Part shown: piece by piece, positions 1-21,212 of the stretch
Layout of the letters: every line of letters starts with the position of its first letter
Position numbering within the stretch: position 1 is the first letter of the stretch
Assembly: GCA_004431415.1 (NCBI GenBank)
Contig: QPMI01000429.1
Span: forward strand, 1 to 64,000
Origin: Cyanophora paradoxa CCMP329
Lineage: Eukaryota; Plantae; Glaucophyta
Length of the DNA: 64,000 bases
Direction: 5' to 3'
Notes under the pieces: model-generated
Databases searched by the model: none
The model's input: the letters and a program-made list of their open reading frames with translations, nothing else
Told to the model about the DNA's origin: nothing
Translations under genes and position numbers: made by a program

Positions 1-23
1 GAGTCCTCTTTTAGAATCTGTGA

Positions 24-134
24 AAAAATGAGTCAACTCCCCCACTTAGTCAACCTAATCGATAAATAAACCATAAATAAAAGACTGTTTGGGTCTTTTA
101 TGATTAAATTTGAGTCAACCTGTGAGTCCACTTT
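24..134. repeat. Block of GAGTC(A/C)AC iteron-like motifs, diverged relative of 18901-19011 (inverted) and 19055-19088 (direct)
   Basis: aaaaaatgagtcaactcccccacttagtcaacc ... cttttatgattaaatttgagtcaacctgtgagtccacttt aligns by eye with the reverse complement of 18901-19011. Confidence 0.85.
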
Positions 135-143
135 TGAGTAAAC

Positions 144-2712
144 CTAAAACTTCAACATCAGATCATAATCTGATGCATCAGGATCAGCAGCAGGTAGTTC
201 TTGTTTCATCCTTGGATTAGCTTCTTCCTCAATGGTCTCCATTACAAGCTTCATCTTTCTGAATTCCTCAAATACTTGTGGGAAGAAATGATAGTATTGT
301 TTACCATTTGTAGTTTTCACTTGGATATATGTAACACTTCGCATTTTGTATAATATCTGCGACTTATAATCGTTTTATATTATTTGCTGGTAATGAACTC
401 CTGGAACCATTTCCAGGTTTCCACAAGGCTACCAGACTTGCATTTATTCTCGGAAATTAAGCCTCGATCACCAAGCCACTTAGTGAACATAGGATGATTG
501 GGCGCACCTGCTGGGCTAAATAGTATTTATTTGTAAGGGGTCTATCAGCAATCCAGTTCACATCCTCACTCAACTTTGGTTCTCAAATAGTGGGCAATGT
601 TTCGAATATTGCAGTGATCATTAAGCCATATTTACAAGTGGAAGGAAGTATGACCTATCCTTTGCGAATTTCTTACTAACTTCAACAACCACAAATCGCC
701 TATCTCCAGCTTCAATTTTAACTGGAATGTTGTTATTGCTGGTGAATATAATCCTGGCAAAGTTGCTTTTTGTGTATGAATCTATCCCTTTGTGTTCAAT
801 ACAATCTTATCAGAAGTTAATGAGATCTTTAAGCATATCATTATTTTCGAATGTGTCCTTGCCTGAGGCTTCATTCACAACAATAAGATCTTATCCTCTC
901 TATTGTGGGCAAATCGACCAAACAGATCCTCTTTTGGCTTACCAGTTGCATAACTCAGGGCATCTCCAAGTATCTTCTTTTGGAAAGTATCAACCAACAC
1001 ATTCTTACCAGTTCCCTGTTCACCAATGAAGATTAAGGATACTCCATTGAGTTCCCCAGGCTTTTGCAGCATGTGGGCAAACCATTTCAACAGATATTCA
1101 TAGGTATTTTGATCCTCACCAGACATTAAGAACAAGTGATCAAGGAAAGGCTTAATCATCTCAGCAGTTACATCCTCTGGAGCATTTTCGAATTGCTGAT
1201 GGTCGACCTTCATTCCTGGATAGAGATTAAATACAGACTTGCATTTTGCACTGAGAGTAGCAGGAGGGGGAGGAAATCCATGTAAGTTGATCTTGTGGCT
1301 GTTGGATCCACAATCCATTTCCTAAATGATTGCTCCCATTTCTCTTTCTCATTATCTGTCCCCTCATTCACAATCACCTTATGCATCAAGTGGGGGAAAT
1401 GCTTTGTAGAGAGTTTTCCCAATATCTTTGGGCATCCAGCAAAGTAGTTGTTCATCCCAGAGCATCACACAACCAACATTTTCAACATGATGCATTCGAG
1501 CATTGAAATACCTCTTATGCACATTGTAATGTTCAGCCAAAGGAGATACTTGCAGTCTTGTAATCGATTTTCATTGTGTCTCTGGTAGGAATGCATACTT
1601 TTTGGGGAAGAGTTCCTTGAAAAGCTCATTGTTATCTTTGCTCAACCAATAAACAAGGATTTGAAGGTCAACACTTTGCCAGGCTCAGCCTTCTTCTTGC
1701 TTCTGCGAGCTGTGTAAACTTTTCTGGCATTCATCATAATCATACTTGTCACTCTGTTCTGAGAATTGGTGGAAGAGTTCAGCCTGCATTTTAGGGGTAA
1801 ATTTGTTGTCTTCCCAACATTGATGATGACCAGTCCAACATCATCCAAGTCTTATACTCGCTGGCTCTTTCAGCATTGAGACCCATTATAACACTTTGTA
1901 GCAGTTCGAAAGTAACAGGATTTTCGGGTTCAGTGTCTTTTTCAGCTTCTACCTTCTCAGTCTTCACTTTATCACTTTTTGGCTCCTTTTTAACTGGTTT
2001 TGGCTCAGGAGTATAATTTGCAAATGCAGAAATATTTGATTCATCACAAGTTTAGTAGTAGCTGAGAGTAAGATACAAAGAAGTCCTCATTTCGCATTAA
2101 CACTTTGTCACAGTCAACGAATTTCTTAAAGCAAACGTTTTTATCAACATCTTTTTTCGACTTATTTTGAGCATCCAGAGTCTCACCTTTGCAGCAATTG
2201 AGGCAGATTAGGTTCTGTGTGGAGCTGTAAACTCCACTGTCATAATCCTCATTTTTCACCAATCCCATCGCTTTGAAAAGCTTGGGGATATCTTCATGTT
2301 TGCATGCAAGCGACTTAATGATAAAGTGGGCTGAGATCTTGAACTTGGTGACATCCTCCTTGATCAAATAAACCCTTCTATGGCGAACTGCAACAGCAAT
2401 ATCGTTAATTGAAGTGGTCCCAGATCGCTTCCATAGCTTATCTCTCATCTCTCTTACAACAGTTTCCGCCTCAGCATAGTTATCAGCAATGTTCTCCTTC
2501 AAATCAGCGAATTTATCCAGGTCCAGGTAAACTCTGGTCACTTGCTCAGGTTGAATGCATTCAGCCCAGGTCTTAACCTTGCTATTATCAATAGCTTCAA
2601 GGGCATCTTCGGCGGAATCAAATACATGGGTGACCTTGTTGCGATCACCAATGAGAGTACTAAGGAATGTAGCATTTTCAACAGGGGTGGCGAATTTCTC
2701 GATTTTGTTCAT
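144..2712 (-). CDS. AEP primase - D5-like superfamily 3 helicase fusion, split by several frameshifts (main fragments 2044-2712, 1210-1455, 875-1318, 144-344)
   Basis: N-terminal RVYLDLD / KISAH / DSGVYS..Q AEP motifs; helicase part FNLY..., FLDHL...YLLKWFAHMLQKP, Walker A GEQGTGKN; continuing off-frame into VNEA (Walker B), IIFTSNNNIP and GDRRFVV. Confidence 0.88.
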
Positions 2713-3653: not shown

Positions 3654-3908
3654 TTATATTCCCAGAGAAAACGTTTTCTGCTGGCAGAGAACTTCTCCTT
3701 GGATACTCCTGTTGCTCATATGTATACTCTGTGGGGTCTGCTGGCATTGACTCCACAGAAATCGTAGACCTCCTTCTCTCTCTTGCTTCTGAGGCATTAT
3801 CCTCAGTATCTGACATCTCAAACTCCACTCTTGTCTCACAGCATCCACTGTGGCAATTGCTCACCACATGCAGACTGAACATCTCGAAAACTTTCGTATT
3901 ATATCCAT
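3637..3908 (-). CDS. Small hypothetical protein with CHSGCC motif (probable 5' frameshift)
   Basis: ORF 3637-3882 plus upstream out-of-frame ATG at 3908; overlaps the start of the next gene. Confidence 0.4.
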
Positions 3909-4038
3909 GTCTCTAATAAAACAGAGATAATTAAAGCCAAACTCGTCTTTTATATACTGTGGGAGCTACTCCTTTTCTACTTCAGCTTAGTGGCACCAGG
4001 TTCAATGGTTCCCTTCTGGGTCTTTGTTTTCATTTCAT

Positions 4039-4659
4039 CTACTGCCTGCTCATCGATTTGGGTTCTTTCTTAGCAATAAACTGTTTATCTGGGACACCAG
4101 TAATGCCCATTTTATAAACTTCCTTTCGAAGCATCTCCTTTAGCTTGGCTCTCTCTTTCTTCTCAGTAACATACTGCTCCAAGGCACTTGATTTGGCTTC
4201 CAGATCTTTGAGTTTAGCAGTCATCTCATCCCATTGAGCCTTGGGAATTCGATGAATATTTTGAGTGGGAGCAGTCTTATATGTGACTTCACCAGCCATA
4301 GACTGGATTACCTTGTCTGATTCTTTACTGAGACCCTCACCTTTGCGAGCCAGTGATAGATCTTGCAAGCCTAAACCTTTATCATCAGCAGCACAATAAT
4401 TCGCCTGGCTCCTCAGCAACAGCCTTCATCTTTGAGGCTTCAGGTGAAATGTTGAGTTGGTCACTGGTTGAAGCCTGTGGGGCTTTGTCATCAAATGATT
4501 CCTCATAGGCAGCATTGAGGGGGTCTTCTTGTTGTTGAGAGGGCTTCACTTCATTCATACCATTGAATTTCAGTGGGTCTGTGTTAATGGATCCATTGTT
4601 TCCACCACCTGAATAGCAACAGCCCCAGCTGGGATCCCTATCTTTCGTTTGGGAGGCAT
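4039..4659 (-). CDS. Hypothetical viral protein (frameshifted; starts MPPKRK)
   Basis: ATG at 4659 preceded by AATAAAG; C-terminal fragment is ORF 4039-4419 with a coiled coil; NLS-like PKRK. Confidence 0.45.
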
Positions 4660-4773
4660 TGTATCTTTATTAGAATGAGAGATAATTTTATAAACCGCGT
4701 TTATATCGCATCAATTTATTGCTATGGACTTGGCTTTTCACTTCTTTGGGGGCTTCCTCTTTCTCTGGTGGTT

Positions 4774-5466
4774 TCAGTTCATCTTCTTTCTTTTTGGCTT
4801 CCTGTGGAAGCGAGGAAATGGGAAATCTTTCACAAGCTCAGCTTTATCTACATAGTATTTAACTGAGTAGTTTGCAGAGGACCAAATGATATACTGATAG
4901 GAGTGAACATACTCTTCAAACATCTTGTAGAAATCCTCTTTATTTCGCATTATATTGTATTCTTCCTCTATGGCTTCCAGTTCTTTGCGATTTGCAGCAC
5001 TTAGAAACATTGCATAATCGAATTTACTCGAATAGTCGAAGAGACTTTTCTTAGCTTTTGTGTGATGCAGATAATGGATATTTTCGAATGGCGACCTCTG
5101 GAATACAGAGATCCGATTATTTTATCCTTGTGAGATCGACTATCTCATTATCGATTAATCATCTAAAACCACACACAATTGGTTAACAGGTTCACCTTTC
5201 TCTATTTTCTCTTGCCTCTCATCTAGCAATTTAGCAATGTAAGGGGCATCCCATTTTCCCAGTTGCAGTGTTGCCACTTTATCCCAGAAATGATTGAAGC
5301 TGGTTCCACTCACAACTAATACAACATCAATCTTTTTGGCATCATGTAATTGCTTTAACCAATACTTCACAGCTTCTGATTTACCAGTTGCTGATTTTCC
5401 TATTGCCAATACACGAAATGGTGGTTCTATCATTTCACCAGCCACAAATTCATCCAAATCAGTCAT
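4774..5466 (-). CDS. A32/FtsK-like DNA packaging ATPase (frameshifted)
   Basis: Walker A GKSATGKS, Walker B LCVVLDD; manual translation past the break gives LYSRGRHSKISIICITQK...TIRVN (A32 GRH...Q...R.N motif), then ORF 4774-5010. Confidence 0.92.
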
Positions 5467-5531
5467 TGTTGTATATCTTTCTTAATAAAGACATATAAAA
5501 ATAATGCAGGGAGACTGAAAATCGTAACAAT

Positions 5532-6898
5532 CTATAAATTAATTCTGCGTAAACCATCTTTGTCGACAATAATAAAGCTATGCATGAGAGCGCGAACATT
5601 AACATCGATTACCTTATCTGAAGGCATGTAGAGGGTGAGGAATGAAGAGGAGGAATTTGTTAAATCAACATAACCAGACTGGGCAATATTTCGAATCGCC
5701 TTTTCTCCATCAAGGCAGAAAGGCAATCCTGAAAGGACATAGCGATCAGCAACCTTATCCATGTTAGAGCATTTGAAGGCATCAGCAATTAGCTCAGCAC
5801 CTTTGAGTAGGGAAATTGGCTCAGTGGCAAAAAGTCGCTGACCATTTATTTCAGTTGTAAATGTTATGTCTTTGGAGTTGGCATAGGTCTTAAGAACACT
5901 GTGGGAGCCATTGGATTTGTCAACAGTTGCATTATCACGAACTGAAACAAGCAGAGCATATACAAGACCTGAGATTTGAGAGAGGTTAATTCGATTGGGT
6001 TGGGCATTGCCCTTAGCAGGGAAAGCAATAGCATCAACAAATCCAATATCAAGGGAGGGAATAGCCATGCCAGTAGTCTTAACTTTTTCAATTACAGTAG
6101 CGAAAAGCTCATCAGAAACATTAATAGCATGCATATAAAGGCGAGGAGAAGTAATTGAAATTTCAGGAGTTGTTGCACCAAGAGTAAAGTCTGTGATGTT
6201 TTGACCAACATTTGCCAGAACAGTTTCAGCAGGGGCAGTTCCAAGACCATCATCTTTTGAATAATCTACATCAGCTGCTGCAACAGTAAGACCACGACCA
6301 CCATAGGATGTTTCAACATAGCCTTTTCCAACATCCTTAAACAAACAGTAACAACCATTTCACCAGATAAAGCACCAAGGGGAAGGTAGTGATTTAGCCA
6401 AGGCACTGGAATTTCAACGAAAAATGAGCCACCAAGTCGGTTGGTTCCATGAGCAGGGATGCCATGAACCATGCCCATTGATCGTTTCTTTTTAGCTAGT
6501 TGATCCTCGAATAATAGACCAGGGGAAATGAGCAAGGAAATCAGATGGAATATGGTAGGTGTAAGATCCATAGGTAATTTCAAGTCGCTGAACTAAAGCA
6601 CCAACTGGGCGAGTGTATCCATTGCGAACTAGATCAGTATCACCAGCAAAAGTGATAGCTGGAAGGTCAAAAGCAAGTTCGAGTTTTCCACAGAAATTGT
6701 AGCGAGTAGCTTGAAGGAAATGCGATTTCCTACATTATTTGTGAAAGTATTACTAGGATTCACAACAACTAGAACTGGCTTAGACTTGGATTCGAGACCA
6801 AGCATAAGGGAGTTATCCAGGAAAAAGGCTTTCGCCTCCTCTGGGGTTGTTAGGGCTTCTTTCAGCGAAAGTCTTTGAAGAGTGGAAGTGATATCCAT
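5532..6898 (-). CDS. Probable double-jelly-roll major capsid protein (frameshifted; fragments 6629-6898, 6266-6583, 5532-6344)
   Basis: About 450 codons in total, beta-strand-like composition, motifs such as RISFKL, FFVEIPVPWL..YLPL.AL..EMVV and ISITSPRLYMH; lies between ATPase and penton as in PLVs. Confidence 0.72.
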
Positions 6899-6951
6899 TA
6901 TATTCTCTTTTATTATACTGCAACATAAAAAATCTACCAATGATCCTTAAT

Positions 6952-7962
6952 TTATGCGAAGTTTGTAATAACTGGATAGGAAGGGTGAAGCTGCGACATT
7001 CTCATCTTATAGTATTCATAAACTGGGTCCCCAGCTGGCTCATCACCATAGCGAATTTCAAAGGTAAGATGAACAGGTTGACCCTCGAAATCAATTGGTT
7101 CATTAACAGCATTCACAATATCAACCGAGAAAGTGGATAATCCAACCTTCTTATTATAGTATTTGTAAAGTGGATGAGCCTCTGTCGAATTGTAAACTAC
7201 ATGCTCACCATAATCTTTGTCAGGGACCACTATTTTATGGAAGTAACCAGTCAGGAGACCATCCCCACATTGCACCAGATCACCCAGCTCCTTTACTCTC
7301 ACAAACAAAACACTGTCCCTGGTCATTTCAGGCTCAAATGAAGATATAATACCGTTTACTCGAGTTCCAGTAAAGATTCCATCAGTGAGAGCATCATAGA
7401 CCTGTGATTTGATTGGGGAATTACCATATCTTCCAGGATCAAGACCAAAAAGTCGAGCTGAGCTTAACAGCTTTTGGATTGTTTTCAGGTTTGGGTCTAC
7501 AGCAAGTGAGAAAGCCAGGTAAAACTTTTTTTCGGAATGGAATATAATTCGTTTCAGTGACTCATCCCATTTGCAGCGAACAGATGGTTTAGGATTTCTG
7601 TCATTAAACTTTTCATTTATAACATTCACCAGCTGTTGGTGGTTTTGAATGGGGGTTTCGCGATTTACAATGAATTGTTTCCATTGTTCAAAATCAGCAG
7701 CTGGGCGAGTTGTTGGAATTCCTGTAGTTCCAGCTCCCGCAAGCTCTTCAGAATAATAAATACTAAAAGTGTTGTCAACTGTTATATCTCCTGCTTTGGT
7801 TTCACCACTCACCATAGGGATGCTGTTATAAAATTCGGCTGAGACCAGTCTCACAGCCCTCACATTCTCATAAGTACTGGGGAGTCTAGCCACAAAGCTT
7901 GATGTGGGACCATCACCAGAGATTGTATTAAATGAGCTAACCTCGATGTAATCCACAGGCAT
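6952..7962 (-). CDS. Minor capsid protein / penton-like (single jelly roll) 1
   Basis: N-terminal IEVSS...SSFVARLP..YENV.AVRLVSAEF.NS and C-terminal LSTFSVDIVN....IDFEG.PVHLTFEI, typical of PLV/NCLDV penton proteins; intact 336 aa. Confidence 0.82.
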   Translation of the reverse strand: MPVDYIEVSSFNTISGDGPTSSFVARLPSTYENVRAVRLVSAEFYNSIPMVSGETKAGDITVDNTFSIYYSEELAGAGTTGIPTTRPAADFEQWKQFIVNRETPIQNHQQLVNVINEKFNDRNPKPSVRCKWDESLKRIIFHSEKKFYLAFSLAVDPNLKTIQKLLSSARLFGLDPGRYGNSPIKSQVYDALTDGIFTGTRVNGIISSFEPEMTRDSVLFVRVKELGDLVQCGDGLLTGYFHKIVVPDKDYGEHVVYNSTEAHPLYKYYNKKVGLSTFSVDIVNAVNEPIDFEGQPVHLTFEIRYGDEPAGDPVYEYYKMRMSQLHPSYPVITNFA

Positions 7963-7991
7963 TCTTCTTTTATCTATATTTATATATTAAA

Positions 7992-8922
7992 ATGAACCGG
8001 CTCGTTAATATTGATAGCAGGGATAGAAGCCAAGGACAAAATGAAAACTCTTACAGGGTCACCCTCACAACTCCAGTAGAGAGACCAAGGGAATGCAGGG
8101 TTCTATATGCAGAGATTCCAAACAGCATCTATAACAGTGTGGGAACTGATCATCTAACAGTTCAGTTTAATTACCAAGATGGTTCATATAACCAAGTGAT
8201 CACACAACAAGTGTATCCCCTTCCCAGTGGCTACATCAATCAGGGTCATTTTGGGGTAACACACCCTTATAATTATGGGCTGAACTATTCAAGCTTCCAA
8301 ACCATTGCAGGCAAAACAGTAGCTTTTGAGTTCAAGATATTCTATAACCCAACTACCTATAAAGTGGAGTTTTACAGTAACCATGAGTTTCGTTTTATTG
8401 CAAGCAACCAGAGAATAGGGAAGCTTTTGGGTGTGAGTTCTACTGAATACACCAATGGGTATTATAGCACTCCTCCTGTTGGTGGATCACCCTATCGACC
8501 TGAGAACCTGTTAAAGTATGATGGCAAACCTATTACACCTGATCACCCAGCATGGGAACCACCTTTTCAGGACCCAGACTCTCATCTAAGCCCTTGCAAT
8601 ATTATTTTGACAGCAGAAAGATGTCTGATATGAATGCTGAGCAGTATCTATACATGCACATTAAAGAGCTTGCCCCTTTTGCCAGCAGACACAATATAAT
8701 TCCGAAATCGCAACCACATAACCAGGGGCAATCCTTAGATTGCAATTGAGTAAGGATATAGGTGGCTATGTTTACCATAGTGGTGAACATGCAGAATTCA
8801 TTCAGATAAATGACAGAAACCTGGTGATAAGGGAACTCACAGTTGAGTTTAAAGATTACTTTGGTGAACTGATTGATATGAATGGAATCGATAATTCTTT
8901 TCAGTTGGAGTTTATCGAATAA
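7992..8922 (+). CDS. Minor capsid protein / penton-like 2 (frameshifted near 8600 and 8730)
   Basis: VNIDSRDR...YRVTL...VLYAEIPNSIYN at N-terminus; YLYMHIKEL; C-terminal IRELTVEFKDYFGELIDMNGIDNSFQLEF. Confidence 0.85.
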
Positions 8923-10466
8923 AGGCACCTGTAAAGTCAACTCTCATTGTGGGAGCATTCACATACACAAGGGGATAAATGCGAATATATTTAATTCTGA
9001 GAGAAAAACCTATGTAAAAAGCATCCTTGATGCTGAGAGGAAATCCACTCAATAGAGCCATATCACCTGAGTTGTGAGCATTGTTAATGTTCTCACAGAC
9101 ATATATTTTGTTCTGCCCATCTGATCGAATAAAAGACCAGTTGATCCCATCAGTGGATGTTGCCACATTGAAAATCTTAATAAAAGCATTGGTGTCCCCT
9201 GATCCATAGGCAATCACAGAAGAGAGTTCAAAAGTATATGGGAAAGCAACTTGAAGGTATTCAGTGGGGGTTTCCCATATCTGCTCAGGAGCATAGGCTC
9301 CAGCTTCCCAGCCAAATGCTGAAGGTCTAGCCATGAAAGGCTCTTTACCAGTCACAGAGGATGAGGCAGTGAAGGCATCATCTGCAAGCTGATACCAATT
9401 AGCATCCAAAGGTGGTGATGTAGTGAGAGTGGATGAAATGTAAGCCTTTGAAGGGTTCTTTAGTTCATAGTTTGCTACTAGTAGGCTGCAAAGCTTATTG
9501 ATCATATCATTGTTTGCTGCAATGTAGGTTTCTGTGAAAGAAAGCATATCTGGGATTTTAGAAGTGTCATCAAGGGAGCTAACTATATGGTTTGGAAGAG
9601 GCACTGATAGCCTATAGTATCTCCCATAATCCTGATCATAGTTGTAGGGTAACAACTCCTCCATCTTATCAAGGGCAGAAAGCTCACTTGCAGCCATGAG
9701 CATGTTAATCAATGGGCTTCCATCTGTTGAGGCAATCCATGAGAGAATGCCCCAGCTGTTGACAGTCTCATAAGCATAACCCACATAATCAGACTCTAAA
9801 TGTGGGTCCACCTCTCCACAAGAGATACTTATTACTATAATGTCATCATCATCACTGTAAATCTTCTTTGCATGGCTGTAACCACACACACTGGGATTAT
9901 TGTTTCCCGAAATGGCACCATCAATGAGACAGACATATACTCCCCGATTGAAATCAACAATGCTTACAGGAGAGAAATATGTAGGAGCAGCAGAAGTAGC
10001 CCTAGCAGCAATCTTACAAGGCATAAAGTTGTAATTGTTGTCATTTGTGATAAATATTGGTTTCATATTCTGAGTATCAAAGGATGTAATCACAATGTCC
10101 TTTAGGGAATCCTGTATTAGTGATTCACCAGTAACTGAATTGATTGCAGTCTCCAAGGGTCCCACATCATACTTTGTATTAAAAAGGGCATTTTCGATTA
10201 TATTTCGAGGATTTGCGAAAATCAAGGGCAGTTGAGTTAGGTAAATATTGTGTAAATCGTTCGCTGTCAGTTTAGGTTCACCTGGTCTATCAGGATGCCT
10301 TATATTCAAACCTATTGCAATGATCCCACCAGTGGAAGTTCCACTCACAAGATCCACAAGATCGATTATTCTCCTGCCAGTTCGATTTTCGATTTCTTTG
10401 AGCAGCCTGGTTATGATAATGCCCTTGCACCCCGCCAGAAAGACTTAAAACGACCTTGAGAGGCAT
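8912..10466 (-). CDS. Patatin-like phospholipase fused to C-terminal discoidin (F5/8 type C)-like domain
   Basis: True start likely ATG 10466 (MPLKVVLSLSGG-CKG, frameshift in a G run); GTSTG nucleophile elbow, ARATSAAPTYF, DGA; C-terminus FTASSS...EYLQVAF...STDGINWS...KYIRIYP...MRVDF. Confidence 0.9.
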
Positions 10467-10509
10467 CTTTTACTTATCAGGAATTTTATAAATCCATATA
10501 GTAAAAGCC

Positions 10510-13500
10510 ATGAGCTTCAATTACCCACCCAATCTAGAAACCATTCAAGATGATAATGCAAGCAGCACCAAGCATGTGAACTTTGATAATATTAAAGTAA
10601 AGGGTTCAGTTTCAATTGACCACAGCTCTGATAATTCATCAAAGACTCAATCAAGGGAGCATGCTTTATCTGTGAATCAAACCGATCCAGATAAAGAGGA
10701 GGTCAGTGTTGCTTTTAGTTTGGGTAATGTGAAAGCAAACCAAGTGGCAGAGATCAAAGCAACAAGAAGGAGACCTAGGAAACTAAAAACCAGTGGCACT
10801 CACCCAGATATACCTTCCAGGTTCGATAGTGGTCGATTGATTTTCAATGTTCAAGATGAGCAGGGCAAACAGAACACAGCTTTGCGAATTTACAATGAGG
10901 GCAGCACTGCAAAAGCTGAGGTCCCCAAGTATTGCAAGTGGGTCCCATTGCCAACACAAATCAGGTCTCCTACACAAATGATGTATACCCCAAGGATATT
11001 ACATATGACTTTGCGAGGAATGAGCCTTTTGGGTTTTTTACTCCAAAAGATGTCCATCAAAAAAAGCCATCAATTACAATCAACAGTAGCCCCAGTCAAC
11101 CAGTAGCAATCCATTTACACCCTGATTTAGTCGAAATGGATAGGCACCTTTTGCCTTTGTATAGCAATGTGAAAGACCTTGGAATTCGAACCAGGCAATG
11201 GCGAAATATCCATGGCAGCAATGTGTATGCAAATGGAGAGAAGCTTGTAAGTGAGAAAACCCTAAGAGAAATCATTGAGCATTATGGTCCCAATGGACCT
11301 ACTGTCCCATTCCCTATTCCATTTCCCAATGGACCACCCGATTTAACACCAAAGAAGCAACCTGGAAGAGAATACACAGCAACTGAAGATGTAGCCTTTG
11401 GGCAGCACATTGTTAGTTGGGAGCAAGTTCGCAATAAACCTATAATTGAACCAAAAAAGCAAATAGATGAGCAGTATTTACCTCCTGAAATCGATATATT
11501 AGAGCTTGATGAATATCAATTCGTTCCAGATGAGGAAGAATATTTACCAGATGGTTTTGACCCACAAGAATATGAATATGATCAGTTTGATCCCAATGAG
11601 GAGGAGATACTACCAGATGGCTTAGATCCACAAGAGTTTGAGTATGAGCAGAACTATGAACCTGATGAGGAGTATTTGCCAGATGGGCATGATCCACCAG
11701 TTGTTGATTATGAGCAACCTTATGAACCCCATGAGGAATTATTACCAGATGGATTTCGACCTGAGATCTGGGAGTTCTTTCCTGATTATGAACAAATTAA
11801 TAATAAACCTGCAAAGTATCCCCAGAGGATCACAATCATGATTGGGATGAGATCTTAGGCAAACCTCAAAAGTATCCACCAGAGGATCACAGGCATGATT
11901 GGGGTGAAATTGATGGGATTCCAACTGAGTTCCCACCAAGCAAACATGAACATATTTGGGATGAGATCAATGACCAACCAGAATTTGCAAAGGTGGAGCC
12001 TCTTGATAACTTGGGGTTTCTCTTTACCAGACTTGTAATATCCCTGAAAGGATCTTTTTGAATGAACACTATGTTCATGTGAATGGGACACTTGCAAATT
12101 CAGCTATGAGAGGACCACTTCATATTAGGACATTACCAGGCTCTTTTGAAACCCACCACCACCAGGAGCAACCATACCAAATATCTTTGTGTCAAGCTAC
12201 ATGGAGGCTGACATTCCCACAGATACATTCAGAGTCCCAACAGACCCAGCAACCTACCAAAATTACAACTCTGCTATACAGGTTCATGTAGCAGATGTAA
12301 GCAGCTTAGATGGCTCAAGACCAATGATAGTTTTCAGTCGAGATAAGTATTCCTACATTCCCATAGTGGGAACTGCAAATGATAATTATGGAAGGGCAGA
12401 GCTTGCATGGATTAAAACAGATTATGGTGGGGTTCTGGAAGCCAATCAAAGAATGGCTGCAAAAAACATACACAATGAGAGCATTTCGAGAGTAGTCACA
12501 GAGGATTACCTTCAAGCTCAGAACTACATAGATGAAACAGAACTAAATACAATCATTGCAGGTATAGGTATTGGTGTTACAGGCAATTACCTCCCTCTCA
12601 CAGGTGGGACTATTGATGGAACAGTAACAGCATGTAACTTCTTTGTCCATACTGAAAGCAATCAAACCTTTCCTGTGGTTCATCCAGGAGGTGAGTATGA
12701 GATACCTGATGATCCAGCTATTATGCCCATTAAGATTGATCTCCCTTCTGATTATGTAGGAAGGGGTGAACTAAAGACCATCTCTTTCACAGGAGATTAT
12801 AATGATCTCATAAATAAACCTACTGCTGCAAATCTGCATCCTGTTGCATTTTCGGGTAGTTTCCTTGATCTAAATAATAGATCACACACCCACACAAAGG
12901 CAGAAATCACAGATTTTGCACACACTCACACCAAATCACAAATTACAGATTTTGCACACTTCCACACAAGAGCAGATATCACAAATTTCGCTCACACTCA
13001 TGTTAAATCAGAGATATTAGATCTCGGAAATGTTGCATATGTGGGTCACACCCATACCAAGGCAGAGATTACAGATCTTGGAAATGTTGCATATGTTGGT
13101 CACACCCACACAAAGGCAGAGATTACAGATTTTGCACACACTCATGATTGGAATACAGATATCTATAACAAACCTGCAATTTTCTCAGGAAACTACAATG
13201 ATTTGACCAATAGACCAACTCTTGATCCTTTCACAGCCACCACAATCAGAGCCAACAACACAATGTATGTAGGATCAGGTCAGATTGTAGAACCAGCAGG
13301 ACCTATGTTTGAAGAAACATGGTTCTTCCACAATTCGCAGAATTACTTTGATAAAACCTTACTTGTTCGTGGAAATGCCTATGCAAGAAATTTCTATGCT
13401 ATGAACCCCTCAAATAATGCGACCATCAGTCGATGTATTACAGAGGCAGATCTTTCCAGTCAACTCAATGCATATTTTAATGGGAAAATCCAAGCAGGAA

Positions 13501-13766
13501 CGTATGTTTACACTACTCCTTATCTTTGGGCAAATCCTGACCATAGGTTTAACCTCACTATTAATTTCAACAGCAGCTTTGCTAACCCTCCTATTGTAAC
13601 AACTGGTATACAACACAATGAGACAGCCTACTACTATCGAATGTATGTTAGGCTTAAACAAGTTTACAGTAGCTATTTCACTTGTGAGCTTGACATAGTT
13701 CCATTAAGTTCTTTTGACAGACCAGGATTTCCAGTTACAATTCATTACATTGCTGTCGCAATTTAA
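10510..13766 (+). CDS. Long fibre/adhesin-like protein (ORFs 10510-11106, 10932-11858, 12058-12291 and 12189-13766 probably one frameshifted gene)
   Basis: Acidic EEYLPDG.DP repeats, PP.DH.HDW.EI..KP repeats (off-frame, 11810-11990), FSG.YNDL.NKP and HTHTKAEITDF phage-fibre repeats, C-terminal H-type-lectin/gp53-like domain (INFNSSFANPPIV...IHYIAV). Confidence 0.75.
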
Positions 13767-13785
13767 CTATTTCGTAATTATAAAG

Positions 13786-14865
13786 ATGACCTCCCTTTTA
13801 GAGATTCCGAACTATGAACTTGCAGCCAAATCACTCCACAGCACCTCTCATGAAGTAGTCGACTCCACACCCGGTTTTATTTGCACTGAAACTACAAGTA
13901 ATACCTCTTTCACAGAGAACAGTATACTGAGGGTCAAAGAAATTCGATGTGATCGAAATGGAGGCAAGATTAGAACCACAGGCATTATAATCTCGAATAA
14001 AAACCAAGTTCAAGCAGGTCAGGTAGTCCCCAATTCAGCAATATATGATAATGTGGGTGGATTCACCACAGCACAGATAGTTACTTTTGGTAATACAAGC
14101 AATAATTCTGCTCTTGTGGTGAAAAGTGGAGGAGCCTACATTGGTGATGGAGCAAATGTAGCAGGAACTCTGACAGCAAATCAATTGACTGTGAGTGGGA
14201 CATGTTCATTTGCAGGATTGATGACCTTTAATGGTGGGCTTTCAGGGAATATTCAGTATGGAACACTCACACTTTCCACAAGAATAAATACACCTGAGAT
14301 TGACAACATGAGTGACATAGTCATGAATTACAAGAGGAATGGGGATACCATTCTTTCTCTTCAAAAAACTACTCAAACAGATAACACAACTGTTCAACAT
14401 CTCACACTTCCTGACTACAAGTATCTGAAATTAAGTAGTCACCCTCGTTTCTTTGCAACAAAACAGGAACCAAATGGGTCAATAACTGAAACATTTCGTT
14501 ACATTCTAACCGAATCCTTTTATGCGATAGTCAACAATGGAAATCATTTCAATACCACAACAGGGCTTTTTACCGCACCTGTTTCCGGTAACTATTTAGT
14601 CTCATTCAGTGGATTCTTTTTTATTCCTGATACTCGAAGAAATGGAATAATCACTACCTTCTTACGGAAGAATGGAAGCTCATTTGGAGTTGAGGTTACA
14701 ACTTTAAATAAATCATCAACTGTGTATGCTCATAATGGGTTTGAGATTATTGTAAGCCTTGAAGCTAATGATGGTCTCTCTTTAACTTTTGCTTCTAATG
14801 ATGCTGGTAATATAGAATATAATGTCAGATTTTTCTTCGGATGTATGCTTCTCAGCTCTTCATAA
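13786..14865 (+). CDS. Fibre paralogue A with C-terminal C1q-like domain
   Basis: Shared N-terminal module (KEIRCDRNGG.VRTT, SGGAYIGDG); PRF...NNGNHFNTTTGLFTAPVSGNY...LRKNG C1q signature; ATG 13786 after TAAAG. Confidence 0.82.
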   Translation: MTSLLEIPNYELAAKSLHSTSHEVVDSTPGFICTETTSNTSFTENSILRVKEIRCDRNGGKIRTTGIIISNKNQVQAGQVVPNSAIYDNVGGFTTAQIVTFGNTSNNSALVVKSGGAYIGDGANVAGTLTANQLTVSGTCSFAGLMTFNGGLSGNIQYGTLTLSTRINTPEIDNMSDIVMNYKRNGDTILSLQKTTQTDNTTVQHLTLPDYKYLKLSSHPRFFATKQEPNGSITETFRYILTESFYAIVNNGNHFNTTTGLFTAPVSGNYLVSFSGFFFIPDTRRNGIITTFLRKNGSSFGVEVTTLNKSSTVYAHNGFEIIVSLEANDGLSLTFASNDAGNIEYNVRFFFGCMLLSSS

Positions 14866-14887
14866 TATTATCCACATAATGTAAAGT

Positions 14888-15906
14888 ATGACCACTCAAA
14901 TAGCTGTCCCTGTTTTCTGTTATGCCGCCCCAAAATTACATCAACTCAATCACACAGTAACAGATGCAACCCCTGGTTTTATTTGCACTGAAACGACAGG
15001 AGCCGATTCGTTTTCTCAAAACTCTGTGATCAGATGCAAAGAAATTCGATGTGATCGCAATGGGGGCAAGGTGAGAACCACAGGTTTAATAGTTTCAAAC
15101 AAAAACCAAGTTCAATCAGGTCAGATAGTCTCAGATTCATCAATATATGATGATGTTGGAGGGGTCACCACACCCAAAATAGTAACCTTTGACAATACAA
15201 TTAATAACTCTGCTCTTGTTGTGAGAAGTGGAGGAGCTTACATTGGAGATGGGGCAAGAGTTGATGGAACTCTTACAGCAAACCAGGTGAGTATTACAGG
15301 AACAAGCACCTTTACAGGATTGGTAACAGCTAATGCTGGTATTTCACTACCAATTGCCTCACAGGCTACAATCACAGCAACAAACAAGGTTGTTACACCA
15401 GAAATCGATACAGGAGCCAATGTAGACCTTCTCCTGAAACGAAATAGTAACACTGTTGTTACTCTGGAAGCGAATAGTTTGACAGTTAATACAGGGTGTT
15501 ATCTCAAAACATCACATCCACGATTTTCAGTTCAACTTGGCTACAACCACACTGCTACAACTTCTGCTGATCTAATAAACTGGGCAACAGTTCGAGTAAA
15601 CAATACCAATTCATTCAGCACATCAACTGGAAGGTTCACAGCACCTGTTGCAGGACACTATCGATTTTCAGTATTCACTTCTTCAACCACAACTTCTGCT
15701 ATTGAATTGTTTCTCAGGGTAAACAATGCAGATCCAGGGGATTGAGCATTTCCCAAGTTCACAATCTGTCAACAACAAATAAAGCGCTGTGTTTCTCTTG
15801 CATTCTCAATCTTGCCCAAAACGAATATGTGACACTTGTTACAAATTCAGTCGGTTCCTATGCAAGTCAAACAGCCTTCTCAGGTGAATTAATAAGCATC
15901 GTTTAA
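14888..15906 (+). CDS. Fibre paralogue B with C-terminal C1q-like domain (frameshift near 15740)
   Basis: Same N-terminal module; FSTSTGRFTAPVAGHYRFS; off-frame continuation ...ILNLAQNEYV...FSGELISIV ends at 15906. Confidence 0.82.
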
Positions 15907-15928
15907 TTTTCTTATGGTAGTTTAGGAA

Positions 15929-16195
15929 ATGTCGAATATTTACCAAGTGGTTCTATCTGATATTGAGAAGTTGGGAATGGAATTTTGTGCTGCTTCTGTT
16001 CAAGATTGGATCGATAATGCAGCCCATAACAGGGCAAGAATCGCAATTGATGAGATTGTTCAGAAAGAGATCCACTCTTGCATCTCAGGTGGAGTTCAAA
16101 TACCAACCTCAAAGGAAGCAATTGTGTTACAGGCATTCCAAAGGGGAACTGTTAAAAAAGCGATCGAGTATAATATTATCACAGAAGAGCTGTGA
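15929..16195 (+). CDS. Small phage-like protein, possible fibre partner/chaperone
   Basis: QDWIDNAAHNRARIAIDEIV...QIPTSKEAIVLQAF resembles (from recall) small ORFs that follow C1q-type fibres in aquatic tailed phages. Confidence 0.6.
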   Translation: MSNIYQVVLSDIEKLGMEFCAASVQDWIDNAAHNRARIAIDEIVQKEIHSCISGGVQIPTSKEAIVLQAFQRGTVKKAIEYNIITEEL

Positions 16196-16230
16196 ACATT
16201 ATTTTTCTTTCCTTCTTAGTAAAAGAAGCA

Positions 16231-17076
16231 ATGGGTGAATATAATCGGGTTCAACTGCCTATATATTCCCTTGGATCCCCTGCAATGCATTTTCGCCAGC
16301 ATGAAGTAAATGATGAGGTTCGTGGTTTAGAATCCACAGAGAGACCCAATTCCAATGGTAACTCCTTTGATAAAAATTCGATTATTCGAGTAAAAGAGCT
16401 GAGAGCTGATAAGAATTCTGGTGTGGTTAAAACAACTCGACTTCTTGTCACCAATGCTAACTTCTTCCAGCCTACAAATGGAGGTCCTGATGCTTACAGT
16501 GTTGCCCTGAAAGCCCTAGATTTCGACAAGAATACTGCTGCTGTTACTGTGAGATCAGGAGGAGCATTTATTGGGGGAGGTTGCAGAGTGTCAGGTCAAC
16601 TCTCATCCTCCATTTCGTATAATGATGTCCCAGATACTCTAGAGCAAAATGTGGAAGACCCCCAACGAATTCGATTATATACTCCTGTTGCACAGCAGCC
16701 ATTAATTCAATTTTACATTGGATATACTGTTACTCTTGAAAACTCGGAATTAATTGAAGGAACCAAAAGAGTACTGAGAGGTCTTGCGATTCCATCTGCA
16801 ATGCTTTCCCTTTGTAGAGCCAACAACAATCAAGTAGGTCATAAATACTATTTCAATGTTCAGGGATATAATCATTTCGGTTATGGCTACTGTGTTTATA
16901 ATAATAATTTCACCTTTGACTTGTTTGTTACAGATATTGGGTTATATACTATAACTCTTATCGGTTTGAGAACAGATATAGCCGCTGTATCAGCTCTTAG
17001 AGGTGTAACTCCTGATACTCTTTCAGTTACAGGGTTTTACCAAGAGCCAGATGTAATTGATGACCCAACCCCATAA
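16231..17076 (+). CDS. Fibre paralogue C with non-C1q C-terminal domain
   Basis: Shared N-terminal module (RVKELRADKNSGVVKTT, SGGAFIG); C-terminus HFGYGY...GLYTITLIGLRTD. Confidence 0.72.
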   Translation: MGEYNRVQLPIYSLGSPAMHFRQHEVNDEVRGLESTERPNSNGNSFDKNSIIRVKELRADKNSGVVKTTRLLVTNANFFQPTNGGPDAYSVALKALDFDKNTAAVTVRSGGAFIGGGCRVSGQLSSSISYNDVPDTLEQNVEDPQRIRLYTPVAQQPLIQFYIGYTVTLENSELIEGTKRVLRGLAIPSAMLSLCRANNNQVGHKYYFNVQGYNHFGYGYCVYNNNFTFDLFVTDIGLYTITLIGLRTDIAAVSALRGVTPDTLSVTGFYQEPDVIDDPTP

Positions 17077-17099
17077 AAGATATATCCCTTTAATGTAAA

Positions 17100-17934
17100 A
17101 TGGCAGAGGCACCCACACCAATAGAGCGAATTATAACACCACAGCTATCATTAGCTGCCCCAGCAAACCATGTTTTACAGCATGCTACTTTTGATGATGT
17201 GGAAGGTCTCCAATCCACAGAGGTCCAACCTACCATGAATACTTTTGGTTCCACCCACAAACTGAGATTGCAGGAACTCAGATGTGATAAAAATAATGGA
17301 ATAGTTAAGACAACTAAGCTACTTGTCACAAATGCAAACTTTTCTGCTCATTATGGAGACCCAGATAGCTATGGAGATCCTCTGTCTACTTATTCTTTTG
17401 AATCTAGGTCTGGAGCTATTAACTGCAAATCGGGGGGAGCTTATATTGGTGATGGTCTTAGGGTTGGTGGGGCTGTTGGAGCGCCTCTATTTGTGAATGA
17501 TCAACCCAATCCCATTGATCCTAACACAAGAATTCGAACCTATGTCCCAGCATGAATGCCCCCTATATAATCAAGATATTCCCAATTGTTGTGAATGAAC
17601 AAACAGCAGTAGTAGACTCTCTTGTTGAGATTGGTGACCACTATAAGGTAGTTGTTGATATTCCACCTGATGTTTATGCTGTTTGCCAAGTAGAGGGTGG
17701 AACTCCTAATTTTGCTGTTGTGATCACCCATATGATAATTTTGGTATTGCTTATCATGGAGTCAATTTCGGTTTGGAAGATTATCAGTTCTTAGTGAGAG
17801 CCACCAAGTTTGGTATCTACAAGTGTGTATTATATGCTGAGAGAACCGATTTTATTGCAAGGCAGAATACCTATGCTGAGTATTATGGCACAAATCGATA
17901 TTTCCCCATTTTTGGACAGGATACTGCTCCATAA
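17100..17934 (+). CDS. Fibre paralogue D (frameshifted near 17550 and 17730), C-terminus related to paralogue C
   Basis: Shared module (LQELRCDKNNGIVKTT, SGGAYIGDG); manual joining gives ITPYDNFGIAY...GIYKCVLYAERTD, stop at 17932-17934. Confidence 0.68.
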
Positions 17935-17956
17935 GAATATTGGTTATATATAGAGT

Positions 17957-18229
17957 ATGGATAGTAAAACAAAAAAGTTTATTGATGCTGCTATGACAGT
18001 TCATGGTAAAGATAAATTCGATTACAGTGAGACACATTACATCAAAGCTCAAGAGAAAGTATCTGTTAGATGTTTGCAGTGTAACAAGGTGATCCTTACA
18101 TATCCCTTTAATCATGTGAAGGGATCAGGTTGTAGGGAATGCAACAAAAAGCATTCTCAGGCTTACAGGAAAAGGGCTACTTCATCAATCAAAGTAGAGT
18201 ACAGGGATATTTGCATTAGGTTCGATTAG
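17957..18229 (+). CDS. Stand-alone Zn-ribbon (DUF723-like) protein
   Basis: FI..A..VHG.DKFDYS...Y.....KV...CxxC.......HxxGxGCxxC, the repeat unit of viral homing-endonuclease-associated domains; no nuclease domain attached. Confidence 0.72.
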   Translation: MDSKTKKFIDAAMTVHGKDKFDYSETHYIKAQEKVSVRCLQCNKVILTYPFNHVKGSGCRECNKKHSQAYRKRATSSIKVEYRDICIRFD

Positions 18230-18258
18230 GATTAATTAATTTTTCTAAGGTATTCTTA

Positions 18259-18657
18259 ATGGAGACTAAATACAGAGGCTTTCATGTAATGCTTGATTAC
18301 AAGGCTAAAACAGCTATAGCAACAGGTTATGAGCATGTTAGCTTTCTTGGTAATTGGATTATGAGAACCCTTGAACAAGCAATATTGAGACAAGGTATTA
18401 GGATTGTTCATAAACACTGTGAGATATTTGATGGCAAACTATCACCTCCTGGTTTTGCTTTGGTTCTGCTATTAGATGAAAGCCATTGTACAGCTCATTG
18501 TTATTCCAATGAAGGCATGTTAGCAATTGATATATTCAGTTGTGGTAAAGAAGCTCAGCATAAAACACAATCAGTAGCAGATGAGATCGATAAAACAATG
18601 AATTTCTTAACATTTGAGAAGACTGAGAGACATAAACATGATAGATTCCCGTTTTGA
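18259..18657 (+). CDS. speD: S-adenosylmethionine decarboxylase proenzyme, short prokaryotic type (class 1B)
   Basis: G.H..LD start, PPGF..V.LLDESH self-cleavage motif, AHCY.....AIDIFSCG; 132 aa, intact. Confidence 0.9.
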   Translation: METKYRGFHVMLDYKAKTAIATGYEHVSFLGNWIMRTLEQAILRQGIRIVHKHCEIFDGKLSPPGFALVLLLDESHCTAHCYSNEGMLAIDIFSCGKEAQHKTQSVADEIDKTMNFLTFEKTERHKHDRFPF

Positions 18658-18901
18658 TGGGTTTCTATAATGAATTTCTAAAGGATTCCTTTGTTTTCTA
18701 ACAATAACATTGATAAGCTACTGTAACAAAAAGATATAATATATCCTTTCACTACAGTAGCTTTATACAATGATTATTTTCCGGATTCCGGACATTTTTT
18801 ACGATAGAATTCTATTGTAAGTAATTGGAATAATGTTCGATTTCATTACAGTAAAACTCAACATTCCCCTAGATTCCCCCTATTATATAATATTTATATT
18901 A

Positions 18902-19620
18902 AAGTGGACTCAAGGTTGACTCATATTAATCGTAAAAGTAGTAATAGTATATGGATTTTGTTACGAATTCAATGCAAGGGTTGACTAAGTGGGTTGAGTT
19001 GACTCAAATTTCACAGGAAATATTTGGGACCAAAAGTTTTCTAAAAAGGATTTCAAAAAATGTGTCAACTCCCCCCACTTAGTCAACCCTGACCATAAAC
19101 AGTAAGGATTTGAGCTAACATGTATCACAAAGTGAACATTTTGAGTCCACTTAGAAGATCCACCTAACAGTTTAGAGTCAAATTTACTTGGGAATTCGAT
19201 TTGTATAAAAAGTGAGTCCACCCTGACCATATTCAATAAGCATTCCTCTTAATCCCCTTGTTTATATTTACATTGATTAATATTTAATACTAAGTGGACT
19301 CATGGTTGATTCATATTAATCGTAAAAGGAGTAAATGTATATAAAAATGTGACCATTTCAATGCTAAGGTTGACTAAGTGGGTTGAGTTGACTCAAATTT
19401 CAGAGGAAATTTTGAGATCCAAAGAATATTCTATAAAAGATTTTGAAAAATGTGTCAACTCCCCCCACTTAGTCAACCCTGACCATATACAGTAAGCATA
19501 AGAACTTAAATGTATCACAAAGTGAACATTATGAGTCCACTTAGAAGATCCACTTTTGAAATCAAAGTTGATTTTGCTTGAAATTTCAAAGTTGATCTAA
19601 AAGTGAGTCCACCCTGATTG
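18902..19620. repeat. Two ~390-bp tandem direct repeats built from inverted GAGTC(A/C)AC motifs (candidate replication origin)
   Basis: aagtggactca at 18902 and 19292; ggttgactaagtgggttgagttgactcaaattt at ~18979 and ~19368; tgtgtcaactccccccacttagtcaaccctgaccata at 19061 and 19451. Confidence 0.92.
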
Positions 19621-19778
19621 ATTATGGTAACAAAGTTGACTAAGTTGACTAAGTTGAGTCATCTTAAGAAATTCAAGAAGACTAAGAGTTCAAAATGTTT
19701 ATGAAAAGTGAGTCAACTTAGACCACTTATGGTAACAAAGTTAAATATTTAATTGATTTAATCGGAAAAGAACATGAT

Positions 19779-20005
19779 TTAATCGAATTTATTGATATAA
19801 TTCCGATTAGATTCATTTAGGATTCAATTAAGATTAATCGAAGTTATAGATATAATTCCGATTAACTACAATTAAGATACAATATCGATTAATCGAGTTT
19901 ATCGATATAACATCGATTAAATTAATTGAAAATGCATGTAAAAATATGAAAATTCATGTGAAAATTCAAATAAATTAATCGATTTTATTGATATAACATC
20001 GAATC
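19779..20005. repeat. Four ~32-bp imperfect palindromes (TTAATCGA...TCGATTAA type)
   Basis: Copies start at 19779, 19834, 19889 (55-bp period) and 19975; best copy ttaatcgagtttatcgatataacatcgattaa. Confidence 0.8.
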
Positions 20006-20078
20006 ACACATATGAATATTCATATTTTAATCCTGAGGCGGAACGCCGAGGGATTAAAATATGAATATTCATATGTGT
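20006..20078. repeat. Terminal hairpin at virus/host junction
   Basis: Perfect 28-bp inverted repeat (20006-20033 / 20051-20078) around tgaGGCGgaaCGCCgag; each arm contains the 16-bp palindrome ATATGAATATTCATAT. Confidence 0.95.
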
Positions 20079-20535
20079 TCTGTGCGGCAAGAGCTTCCTC
20101 TCGTGTGGCTGCACCGCCGAACTGCTCACGACGCTGCACGCCGGCAATCACATCCTCCTCGTCCTCGGAAAATGGCTCTGGATCCGGAACGCCGTCACTG
20201 GTGCGGTTTTCGACTGCTGGGGCGGCTGGCGCCTTGCGCTTGTTGCTGGTTGACTGACGGCCACTTGGCGTTGGAGTAGGCGCCGAACCGTTGTCCTCGC
20301 CGCCGGAGTCCGCCGCCTCGGTCACACGCGTGGAACGGCGAGCTCGTGGCTGGGCGGATGCGGTCGGCCGCGGACGGGCTGTCTTGCGGGAGCCCGTTGC
20401 GGAAGACTTGCCCTTCTTGTTCGACCCCGCCTCCGCGCAGGCCGCCAAGAGGCTGAAAACGACGACGACGAGAACAAGTGTGACCACCAGAGGGGCCCAG
20501 CTAGGGCCCCTCCCACGACGAGCCACGCGACACAT
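20079..20535 (-). pseudogene. 5' part of an ORF truncated by the viral insertion
   Basis: MCRVARR... with a hydrophobic segment then a low-complexity region reads open straight into the hairpin; product unknown. Confidence 0.5.
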
Positions 20536-21212
20536 CTTCACTGCTTCGCGCGAAAGAAGACTGAAGGTTGTACCCCTAACAATCATTGTATAGAATCAAG
20601 GCTGCTTACGGAGTGGCAGGCATACAAAGTCATATGCTACGCGTTCGCTCGCATATTCAGTAGTTTCGAAAATGCGGCCGAATGTTCACTCGAATGTTCA
20701 TTGTTCAATGAAGGGACTCGAATCGGTCGCGGCTCACGACTTGAAGGAACAGTAATTATTATAAAAACAGAAGAAAAACGCGATTGCGCCATCGCCGTTA
20801 TCGGGAACAGCGAATACGTAAAACATTACTGATTCGAATTCGAAGACTTTTCGAACCGGCCTGCCGCGCCGCGGACCGGACCGTCGGACGCCCGGCGGCC
20901 CCGCGCCGCGGGCCCGCGCGCCCCGTCGCTGCCGGGCGGCAGTGCCGGCTCGCCGCCAACGGCGCCAAGTCGCCGGCGGCCGCGCCGCCAGTGCCCGCCA
21001 CTGGTCACAGTGGTAGCGCTAGCTCTGTTACGACGTCGACGTCGGAGTCACGGTCGGACTCACGCCGTTCGACGCACTTACACTAATTCAGTGAGATCTA
21101 GAGCTCGAGTCACGTGGACTGTCAATCGCAACTCATGATCACTGATTGCGATTATTAACTCAATTGACGGCGACTTGCCAAAGTTGCCATGCAGGAACGC
21201 TTTTCAGACTCA

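What the first reader, a model, noticed from the sequence alone, without database searches (positions are those of the whole stretch)
20006..20078. Hairpin at the exact virus/host junction: possible opened hairpin terminus
Seen: the last 73 nt of the AT-rich element fold into a perfect 28-bp stem, a short T.G/G.A/A.G mismatch bubble and a GGCG-GAA-CGCC cap, and host-like sequence starts right after the second arm. Known: classical Polintons have protein-primed TIR ends, whereas poxviruses, parvoviruses and N15-type phages use hairpin ends. Inference: this PLV may have a hairpin-ended linear genome integrated in its nicked, extended form, or the palindrome is a recombinase/resolvase core site. 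Either would be an unusual end structure for this group.
Basis: partly seen in the sequence, partly recalled or inferred. Interest (0 to 1): 0.85.

Follow-up and report, generated by a model that had tools for sequence, protein, structure and literature searches.

The report
Hairpin tip of algal endogenous virus
A 73-base fold-back sequence forms the exact last bases of a virus-like element integrated in a probable glaucophyte alga, recurs at the ends of many copies, and likely primes copying of the genome ends; a 2026 preprint described the same kind of end in another protist, without testing its function.

Summary
The hairpin is real: 28 perfect pairs, a T.G/G.A/A.G bubble, a 4-bp cap and a GAA loop. 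It is the element's true right end. All 5 runs laid show the empty site joined at 20079. A database protein continues the split host ORF. Two further host-like flanks join directly after 20078, and contig depth suggests roughly 75 such ends in one run. The element is a polinton-like virus with a double jelly-roll capsid and a primase-SF3 helicase. No polymerase or integrase appears in the 20 kb visible. The host is probably Cyanophora. Most copies are open duplex (centre/inner depth 1.04). No 'flop' form was seen (weak test). The left end and any target-site duplication lie outside the window. Terminal palindromes in pPolB-less PLVs and virophages, with the same hairpin-priming idea, appear in a 2026 preprint. 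This scan noted similar ends in three or four other genomes. Verdict: new member of a recently described, untested kind. Its asymmetric centre makes a flip/flop test of rolling-hairpin replication possible with existing reads.

The parts
20006..20078 (.). Terminal hairpin; last 73 nt of the element, 3' base paired flush with the first base of the inner arm
   Evidence: junction
20006..20033 (+). Inner arm, 28 nt, 21% GC
20034..20050 (+). Asymmetric centre, 17 nt, 71% GC: T.G, tandem G.A/A.G, 4-bp cap, GAA triloop; marks orientation (flip versus flop)
   Evidence: only 2 diagnostic 31-mers separate flop or fold-back from flip
20051..20078 (+). Outer arm, ends at the host junction
20010..20025 (.). 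Perfect 16-bp palindrome inside the arm (second copy 20059-20074); candidate site for a dimeric protein (inference)
19941..19968 (+). Two subterminal copies of the arm's core motif (19941-19960 is 18/20 identical to 20056-20075)
19779..20005 (+). 55-bp tandem repeats (3 copies plus a fourth running into the hairpin)
   Evidence: family D2
18888..19617 (+). Two about 390-bp direct repeats (82.5% identical) with internal inverted motifs
18..134 (-). Diverged inverted copy of the 390-bp repeat (matches 18901-19016): probable inner part of the left terminal repeat; the left end lies outside the window
   Evidence: score 101.5; shuffled mean 37.6, max 57.5
150..2712 (-). Primase (AEP-like DxD and SxH motifs, read by eye) fused to a D5-like SF3 helicase; broken into several frames in this assembly
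   Evidence: (PHROG primase E 2e-12); primase part unconfirmed by profile or structure
4774..5466 (-). Probable packaging ATPase (P-loop), in pieces
   Evidence: (E 4e-4); weak
5532..6898 (-). [quoted passage not shown]
   Evidence: aligned along its whole length to P0001, which folds like the PBCV-1 capsid protein
6952..8920 (.). Two putative minor capsid genes (6952-7962 minus; from 7992 plus); assigned by position and recall only
   Evidence: no family hit
8912..10444 (-). Patatin phospholipase fused to an F5/8 domain
12201..15745 (+). Fibre-like genes: PTR + H-lectin, and two C1q proteins
   Evidence: a PTR-PTR-H_lectin protein is listed for a Cyanophora PLV in PMC12220804
18259..18657 (+). 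S-adenosylmethionine decarboxylase; last gene before the terminal repeats
20079..20535 (-). 5' part (152 codons) of a host Gag-like ORF with a C-terminal CCHC knuckle; the insertion splits the codon for Met153
20079..20664 (.). Target: a host repeat at roughly 9-11 times single-locus depth, probably a retroelement

Best explanation
The 73 nt are the outermost tip of an integrated polinton-like virus that has a primase-helicase but no visible DNA polymerase, they sit in open double-stranded form at the ends of many copies, and they likely fold back when single-stranded to give a 3' primer that would let the linear genome finish copying its ends. Shown: terminal position to the base; flush pairing of the last base; multi-copy presence; absence from the empty site; no pPolB in the visible 20 kb. 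Inferred: (1) after excision or strand displacement the 3' end folds into the hairpin; (2) a host or helper polymerase, or the element's primase-polymerase, extends it; (3) an unidentified nuclease reopens the closed end; (4) the open form is integrated, most likely by an RVE integrase encoded left of the window or by another copy.
For: The stem end equals the junction to the base, so fold-back leaves a paired 3' end with no overhang. In run X2 the centre contig (20024-20069, no differences) has depth 8000 and the inner neighbour 7670, against 101.5 for an adjacent host contig: roughly 75 ends. Depth rises toward the tip, from about 10x to 41-51x to about 76x, so diverged copies converge on this terminus. 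Two other GC-rich flanks join right after 20078 in X2. An X15 contig stops exactly at 20078. No pPolB among 118 frames; a primase-helicase is present. The order gene, tandem repeats, mismatched hairpin matches the description of NCLDV ends (PMC12085832 passage). The preprint links such palindromes to non-pPolB replication genes. RVE is the only integrase class counted in glaucophyte PLVs: 85 of 156, against 0 tyrosine recombinase (Table S6 row, columns read by position).
Against: No function is tested here or in the preprint. No nickase, HUH protein or resolvase was found in the visible element. Fold-back priming with simple terminal resolution should invert the centre each round, yet the one listed contig spanning the whole hairpin (X15, depth 36) shows the window's orientation without a branch. 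That is weak evidence, because contigs drop minor paths and the run type is a guess. The centre/inner depth ratio of 1.04 gives no sign of closed-hairpin or tail-to-tail molecules in the bulk DNA. The left end was not seen, and the depth step toward the tip is about 1.5-1.8x rather than a clean 2x. X1-X3 share variants and may be one strain.
Confidence: 0.5

Rival explanations
1. The palindrome is only a duplex or cruciform recognition site for the integrase or the packaging machinery and has no priming role.
For: It lies exactly at the junction. Each arm holds a 16-bp palindrome whose core recurs subterminally. Bulk copies are open duplex and no flop form was seen.
Against: A duplex binding site does not need 28 perfect pairs plus a separately pairing GC cap with tandem G.A and a GNA loop, which are single-strand features. 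No integrase in the visible part.
Confidence: 0.2
2. The hairpin forms on a 3' overhang as a template or landing structure that directs the element's primase to patch the end, as Streptomyces telomere palindromes do. The end is never closed and the centre never inverts.
For: Streptomyces telomere hairpins have GNA loops with sheared G:A and are read by a primase (PMC5449611 passages). A primase-like gene is present, and only one orientation was seen.
Against: That system needs a terminal protein, and none is identifiable here. It uses several short palindromes, not one long flush stem. A flush paired 3' end is itself a ready primer.
Confidence: 0.17
3. The palindrome is a protelomerase or tyrosine-recombinase core site.
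For: An inverted repeat at the junction. One X2 contig joins foreign sequence at the loop apex, position 20043.
Against: The centre is non-palindromic, whereas N15-type sites are perfect across the axis (recalled). The whole palindrome belongs to the element and is not shared with the target. No such gene in 118 frames; 0 of 156 glaucophyte PLVs with a tyrosine recombinase.
Confidence: 0.05
4. It is a one-off fold-back made at insertion, a long-read assembly artefact, or a host or miRNA hairpin.
For: The window has many indels. The filled junction is not bridged by any listed contig. The preprint also names accidental annealing as an alternative.
Against: The centre is found letter for letter at depth 8000 in X2 and is spanned in X15. 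Other flanks join at the same base, and the empty site lacks it. Rfam hits are all far below the gathering score.
Confidence: 0.03

Closest known systems
Terminal palindromes of endogenous virophages and PLVs of Halocafeteria seosinensis (bioRxiv 10.64898/2026.07.28.741278)
   Same: Palindrome at the outermost edge of an integrated double jelly-roll element; linked to non-pPolB replication genes; hairpin priming proposed and untested.
   Different: Other host supergroup and an unrelated capsid lineage. Here 73 nt with a 17-nt asymmetric centre, against a 52-nt example there (figure and supplements not seen, so their symmetry is unknown). TSD and RVE are reported there and not visible here.
Glaucophyte (Cyanophora) PLVs catalogued in PMC12220804
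   Same: PTR + H-lectin fibre, patatin-F5/8 fusion, AdoMet decarboxylase, D5-type helicase.
   Different: The main text has 0 occurrences of 'hairpin' or 'palindrom', so the end structure is not described there.
Parvovirus/AAV termini (rolling hairpin)
   Same: Imperfect terminal hairpin with a bubble, flush 3' fold-back, extended duplex form; some left ends occur in flip only (PMC1185569 passages).
   Different: dsDNA double jelly-roll element; no HUH Rep/NS1 found; flip/flop not shown.
Poxvirus/chlorovirus/ASFV hairpin telomeres
   Same: Order gene, tandem repeats, mismatched hairpin.
   Different: Those ends are covalently closed (recalled). Here the bulk is open and integrated, and no resolvase was found.
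Classical Polintons/Mavericks
   Same: About 20 kb, double jelly-roll capsid, ATPase, terminal repeats, integrated.
   Different: No pPolB, RVE or protease in the visible 20 kb.
Streptomyces telomere palindromes (Tap/Tpg end patching)
   Same: GNA loop with predicted sheared G.A at a linear replicon end; a primase is involved.
   Different: Terminal-protein primed, several short palindromes, bacterial.

Membership tests
Polinton-like virus | [quoted passage not shown] | tested here: met
   Window 5535-6898 aligns to P0001 along its length. The P0001 model (pLDDT 60.7) matches PBCV-1 Vp54, E 2.5e-16.
Polinton-like virus | A32/FtsK-like packaging ATPase | tested here: inconclusive
   P-loop ORF next to the capsid gene, in pieces; weak hits only.
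Polinton-like virus | Minor capsid protein | not tested
   Two candidates by position; no family hit; not folded.
Polinton-like virus | Terminal inverted repeats | tested here: inconclusive
   Diverged inverted copy at 18-134 and rising depth toward the tip; left end outside the window.
Polinton-like virus | Integrase (RVE or tyrosine recombinase) | tested here: inconclusive
   None in 118 frames of 1-20078; the part left of position 1 was not seen.
Classical Polinton/Maverick | Protein-primed PolB and Ulp1 protease | tested here: not met
   No hit in 118 frames; a primase-helicase instead. Holds for the visible 20 kb.
Halocafeteria-type palindromic termini | Palindrome forms the outermost bases of the element | tested here: met
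Halocafeteria-type palindromic termini | Non-pPolB replication gene | tested here: met
Halocafeteria-type palindromic termini | Shared by the copies of a subtype | tested here: met
   Centre depth 8000 against inner 7670 in X2; two other flanks.
Halocafeteria-type palindromic termini | Present at both ends, adjacent to a TSD | not testable with these tools
Parvovirus-type rolling hairpin | HUH nicking initiator | tested here: not met
   No motif or Pfam hit in the visible element.
Parvovirus-type rolling hairpin | Flip/flop isomers | tested here: inconclusive
   One spanning contig, flip only; only 2 31-mers are diagnostic.
Poxvirus-type closed telomere | Covalently closed ends | tested here: inconclusive
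   Depth ratio 1.04 says the bulk is open duplex; rare free molecules cannot be seen in contigs.
N15-type protelomerase site | Perfect palindrome across the axis and a protelomerase gene (recalled) | tested here: not met
   17-nt asymmetric centre; no such gene.

The most novel reading that the evidence does not exclude
A eukaryotic double jelly-roll virus with neither polymerase nor integrase of its own replicates through true hairpin telomeres, using a primase-helicase and a reopening step that keeps one orientation. It reaches the chromosome by an integrase in trans or by host repair of opened hairpins; the contig joined at the loop apex would be a tip-opened closed end caught in the genome.
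Probability: 0.2. Interest if true: 0.8.

Novelty: new member of a known kind. Interest (0 to 1): 0.5.

Why it matters
How PLVs that lost the protein-primed polymerase copy the ends of a linear genome is an open question, and hairpin priming was only proposed in a 2026 preprint. A perfect palindrome cannot record inversion. This end has a 17-nt asymmetric centre and dozens of copies in a probably cultured alga, so counting flip against flop in existing reads tests rolling-hairpin resolution directly. It also extends this end type to a probable glaucophyte host, which would suggest the solution is widespread.

Tried and rejected
No genome was held, so the left end and TSD could not be retrieved. 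Exact hairpin patterns gave 0 matches in viral contigs and metagenome contigs. Related-locus scans found no usable relative; the single weak locus L001 (30 residues, E 7e-4) was not followed. The primase part had no homolog among 1216 candidates, a useless single-sequence model (pLDDT 42.7) and no PDB sequence hit. P0003 (3989-aa repeat protein, spurious) was left out of alignment A1, which used 5 of 6 hits. Rfam gave 14 matches, all below gathering score, so a miRNA reading was rejected. TSD from gene models: P0008 starts at the split Met153 and P0009 at the next Met; either could be a 3' remnant with or without a TSD, or an unrelated broken copy, so this is inconclusive. Splitting the summed depth bins into flip and flop was underdetermined. 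No RNA holder is on record, so nothing is claimed on expression. The protein atlas and VIA-align did not complete. Kapitonov and Jurka 2006 was not held under the id tried. Target preference was rejected as unshown: the listed flanks begin with T, but only flanks with chance matches are displayed.

Full report
Observation. The structure is as described: 28 perfect pairs (20006-20033 with 20051-20078), then T.G, G.A, A.G, four G-C pairs and a GAA loop. It folds at z = -9.3, with 0 of 200 shuffles as good. The next perfect stem with a gap of 30 nt or less in the window is 11 bp. The arm pattern occurs only twice in the window, as the two arms. GC per kb is 30-42% over 1-20000 and 50-82% beyond, with a change-point near 20079.

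The element. Positions 1-20078 hold a primase-like ORF with a D5-like SF3 helicase, a P-loop ATPase, a capsid gene, a patatin-F5/8 fusion, fibre-like genes and an AdoMet decarboxylase. Several genes are split across frames. At 19206 all three DNA runs carry an extra base at full depth, which suggests assembly indels. The one capsid homolog among 2072 candidates, P0001 (61% identical), is labelled Cyanophora paradoxa. It aligns along the whole window gene, and its model matches the PBCV-1 capsid protein at E 2.5e-16. A Pfam scan of all 118 stop-to-stop frames of 55 aa or more found no polymerase, integrase, recombinase, HUH protein or protease, and a motif scan agreed. Positions 18-134 are a diverged inverted copy of the right subterminal repeat. 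The left end may therefore lie about 0.7-1.1 kb outside the window, but an integrase gene further left cannot be excluded.

Is it the true end? I laid contigs from 5 of 24 listed runs. In all 5, a host contig matches from 20079 onward and carries other letters before it: the empty site, without the hairpin. Independently, protein P0007 is 100% identical to the interrupted ORF and continues past the break. The insertion splits the codon for Met153 of a Gag-like ORF with a CCHC knuckle, in a repeat at about 9-11 times single-locus depth. The empty allele has no overlap with the element's last base, so the junction is 20078/20079 and coincides with the stem end. Limit: no listed contig bridges this filled junction, and the host contig runs unbroken through the site. 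This insertion may be missing from those cultures or may have been cleaned from the contigs. The tables were cut (32 of 776 and 9 of 103 pieces).

Other copies. In X2 the centre contig (20024-20069, no differences) has depth 8000 and the inner neighbour (19958-20031) has 7670. The adjacent host contig has 101.5, which gives roughly 75 ends; depth is only a rough copy measure. Depth rises from about 10x at 19135-19396, through 41-51x, to about 76x at the tip. Two contigs join different GC-rich sequence right after the hairpin, and one joins foreign sequence at the loop apex, 20043. In X15 one contig covers 19521-20078 and stops exactly there. X1-X3 share variants and may be a single strain. A one-off fold-back or an assembly artefact is therefore rejected.

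Form of the end. A centre/inner ratio of 1.04 fits open duplex; closed hairpins or tail-to-tail junctions would give about 0.5 or less (inference). Flop and fold-back forms differ from flip by the same two 31-mers and would branch the graph at 20033. The X15 contig passes that point unbroken in the window's orientation. This argues weakly against a 1:1 flip/flop mix, because contigs drop minor paths and the run type is a guess. The X2 tables do not decide the question.

Mechanism. The element lacks pPolB in the visible part, so a linear genome needs another way to finish its ends. The last base pairs flush with the start of the inner arm, which is primer geometry. The cap has single-strand features: tandem G.A and a GNA loop, the latter described for Streptomyces telomeres (PMC5449611, passages). 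The hairpin follows 390-bp and 55-bp repeats, the order described for NCLDV ends (PMC12085832, passages). I favour fold-back priming (0.5). The folding, extension, reopening and integration steps are all inferred, and no nickase was found. RVE is the likely integrase, since a supplement row counts 85 RVE, 0 tyrosine recombinase, 49 pPolB and 40 D5_N among 156 glaucophyte PLVs (PMC12220804 Table S6, columns read by position). Rivals: recognition site only (0.2), template hairpin for primase patching (0.17), recombinase or protelomerase core (0.05), artefact (0.03).

Comparison with print. bioRxiv 10.64898/2026.07.28.741278 (abstract, sections 6, 7, 10 and passages read; figures and supplements not seen) reports palindromes next to TSDs in four virophage subtypes and one PLV subtype. 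They are associated with non-pPolB genes, and the authors propose hairpin priming without a test. PMC12220804 (passages and supplement rows), PMC10120064 (passages) and PMC8547959 (passages) contain no 'hairpin' or 'palindrom' in the main text. PMC11071308 (passages) has 'hairpin' only in a reference. PMC1185569 (passages) served for flip/flop. Searches found no description of glaucophyte PLV ends; only listings were seen for the other papers, and the library lacks most subscription papers. Earlier notes of this scan describe similar ends in other genomes; these are unchecked leads and are not used as support.

Verdict. The feature is real, terminal and multi-copy. It is a new member of a recently described, functionally untested kind. 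Its value is the asymmetric centre, which allows a direct flip/flop test. Interest 0.5.

Noticed in passing
window 20043 (run X2): One contig joins 255 or more foreign letters exactly at the loop apex. It is either a later insertion into the loop or a closed hairpin opened at its tip and joined to host DNA.
   Followed up: partly
window 20079-20664: The target is a multi-copy Gag-like retroelement. Near 20664 other copies continue with an inverted repeat of about 20596-20630, reminiscent of DIRS/Ngaro ends (recalled, untested).
   Followed up: partly
window 20565-20619 (run X15): A 53-nt skip with GT..AG ends on the plus strand, antisense to the Gag-like ORF, in a run guessed to be RNA.
   Followed up: no
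window 18715-18763: AT-rich hairpin (24-nt arms, 83% complementary) just downstream of the last gene; resembles giant-virus/virophage 3'-end hairpins (recalled).
   Followed up: no
window 17957-18229: Short zinc-finger ORF matching the N-terminal part of phage HNH endonucleases (PHROGs E 3e-9) without a visible nuclease domain.
   Followed up: no
window 150-2712, 4774-5466, 5532-6898: Core genes are split across frames. An indel at 19206 that differs from all three DNA runs suggests assembly errors rather than decay.
   Followed up: partly
window 30971-46275 versus 48596-64000: Host tandem duplication with a period of about 17.7 kb, mostly 87-90% identical.
   Followed up: no
P0001, P0002, P0004-P0006: The capsid lineage is nearly an orphan: 6 hits at E <= 0.001 among 1.84 billion representatives, one of them spurious, and no Pfam family for the three scanned.
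   Followed up: partly
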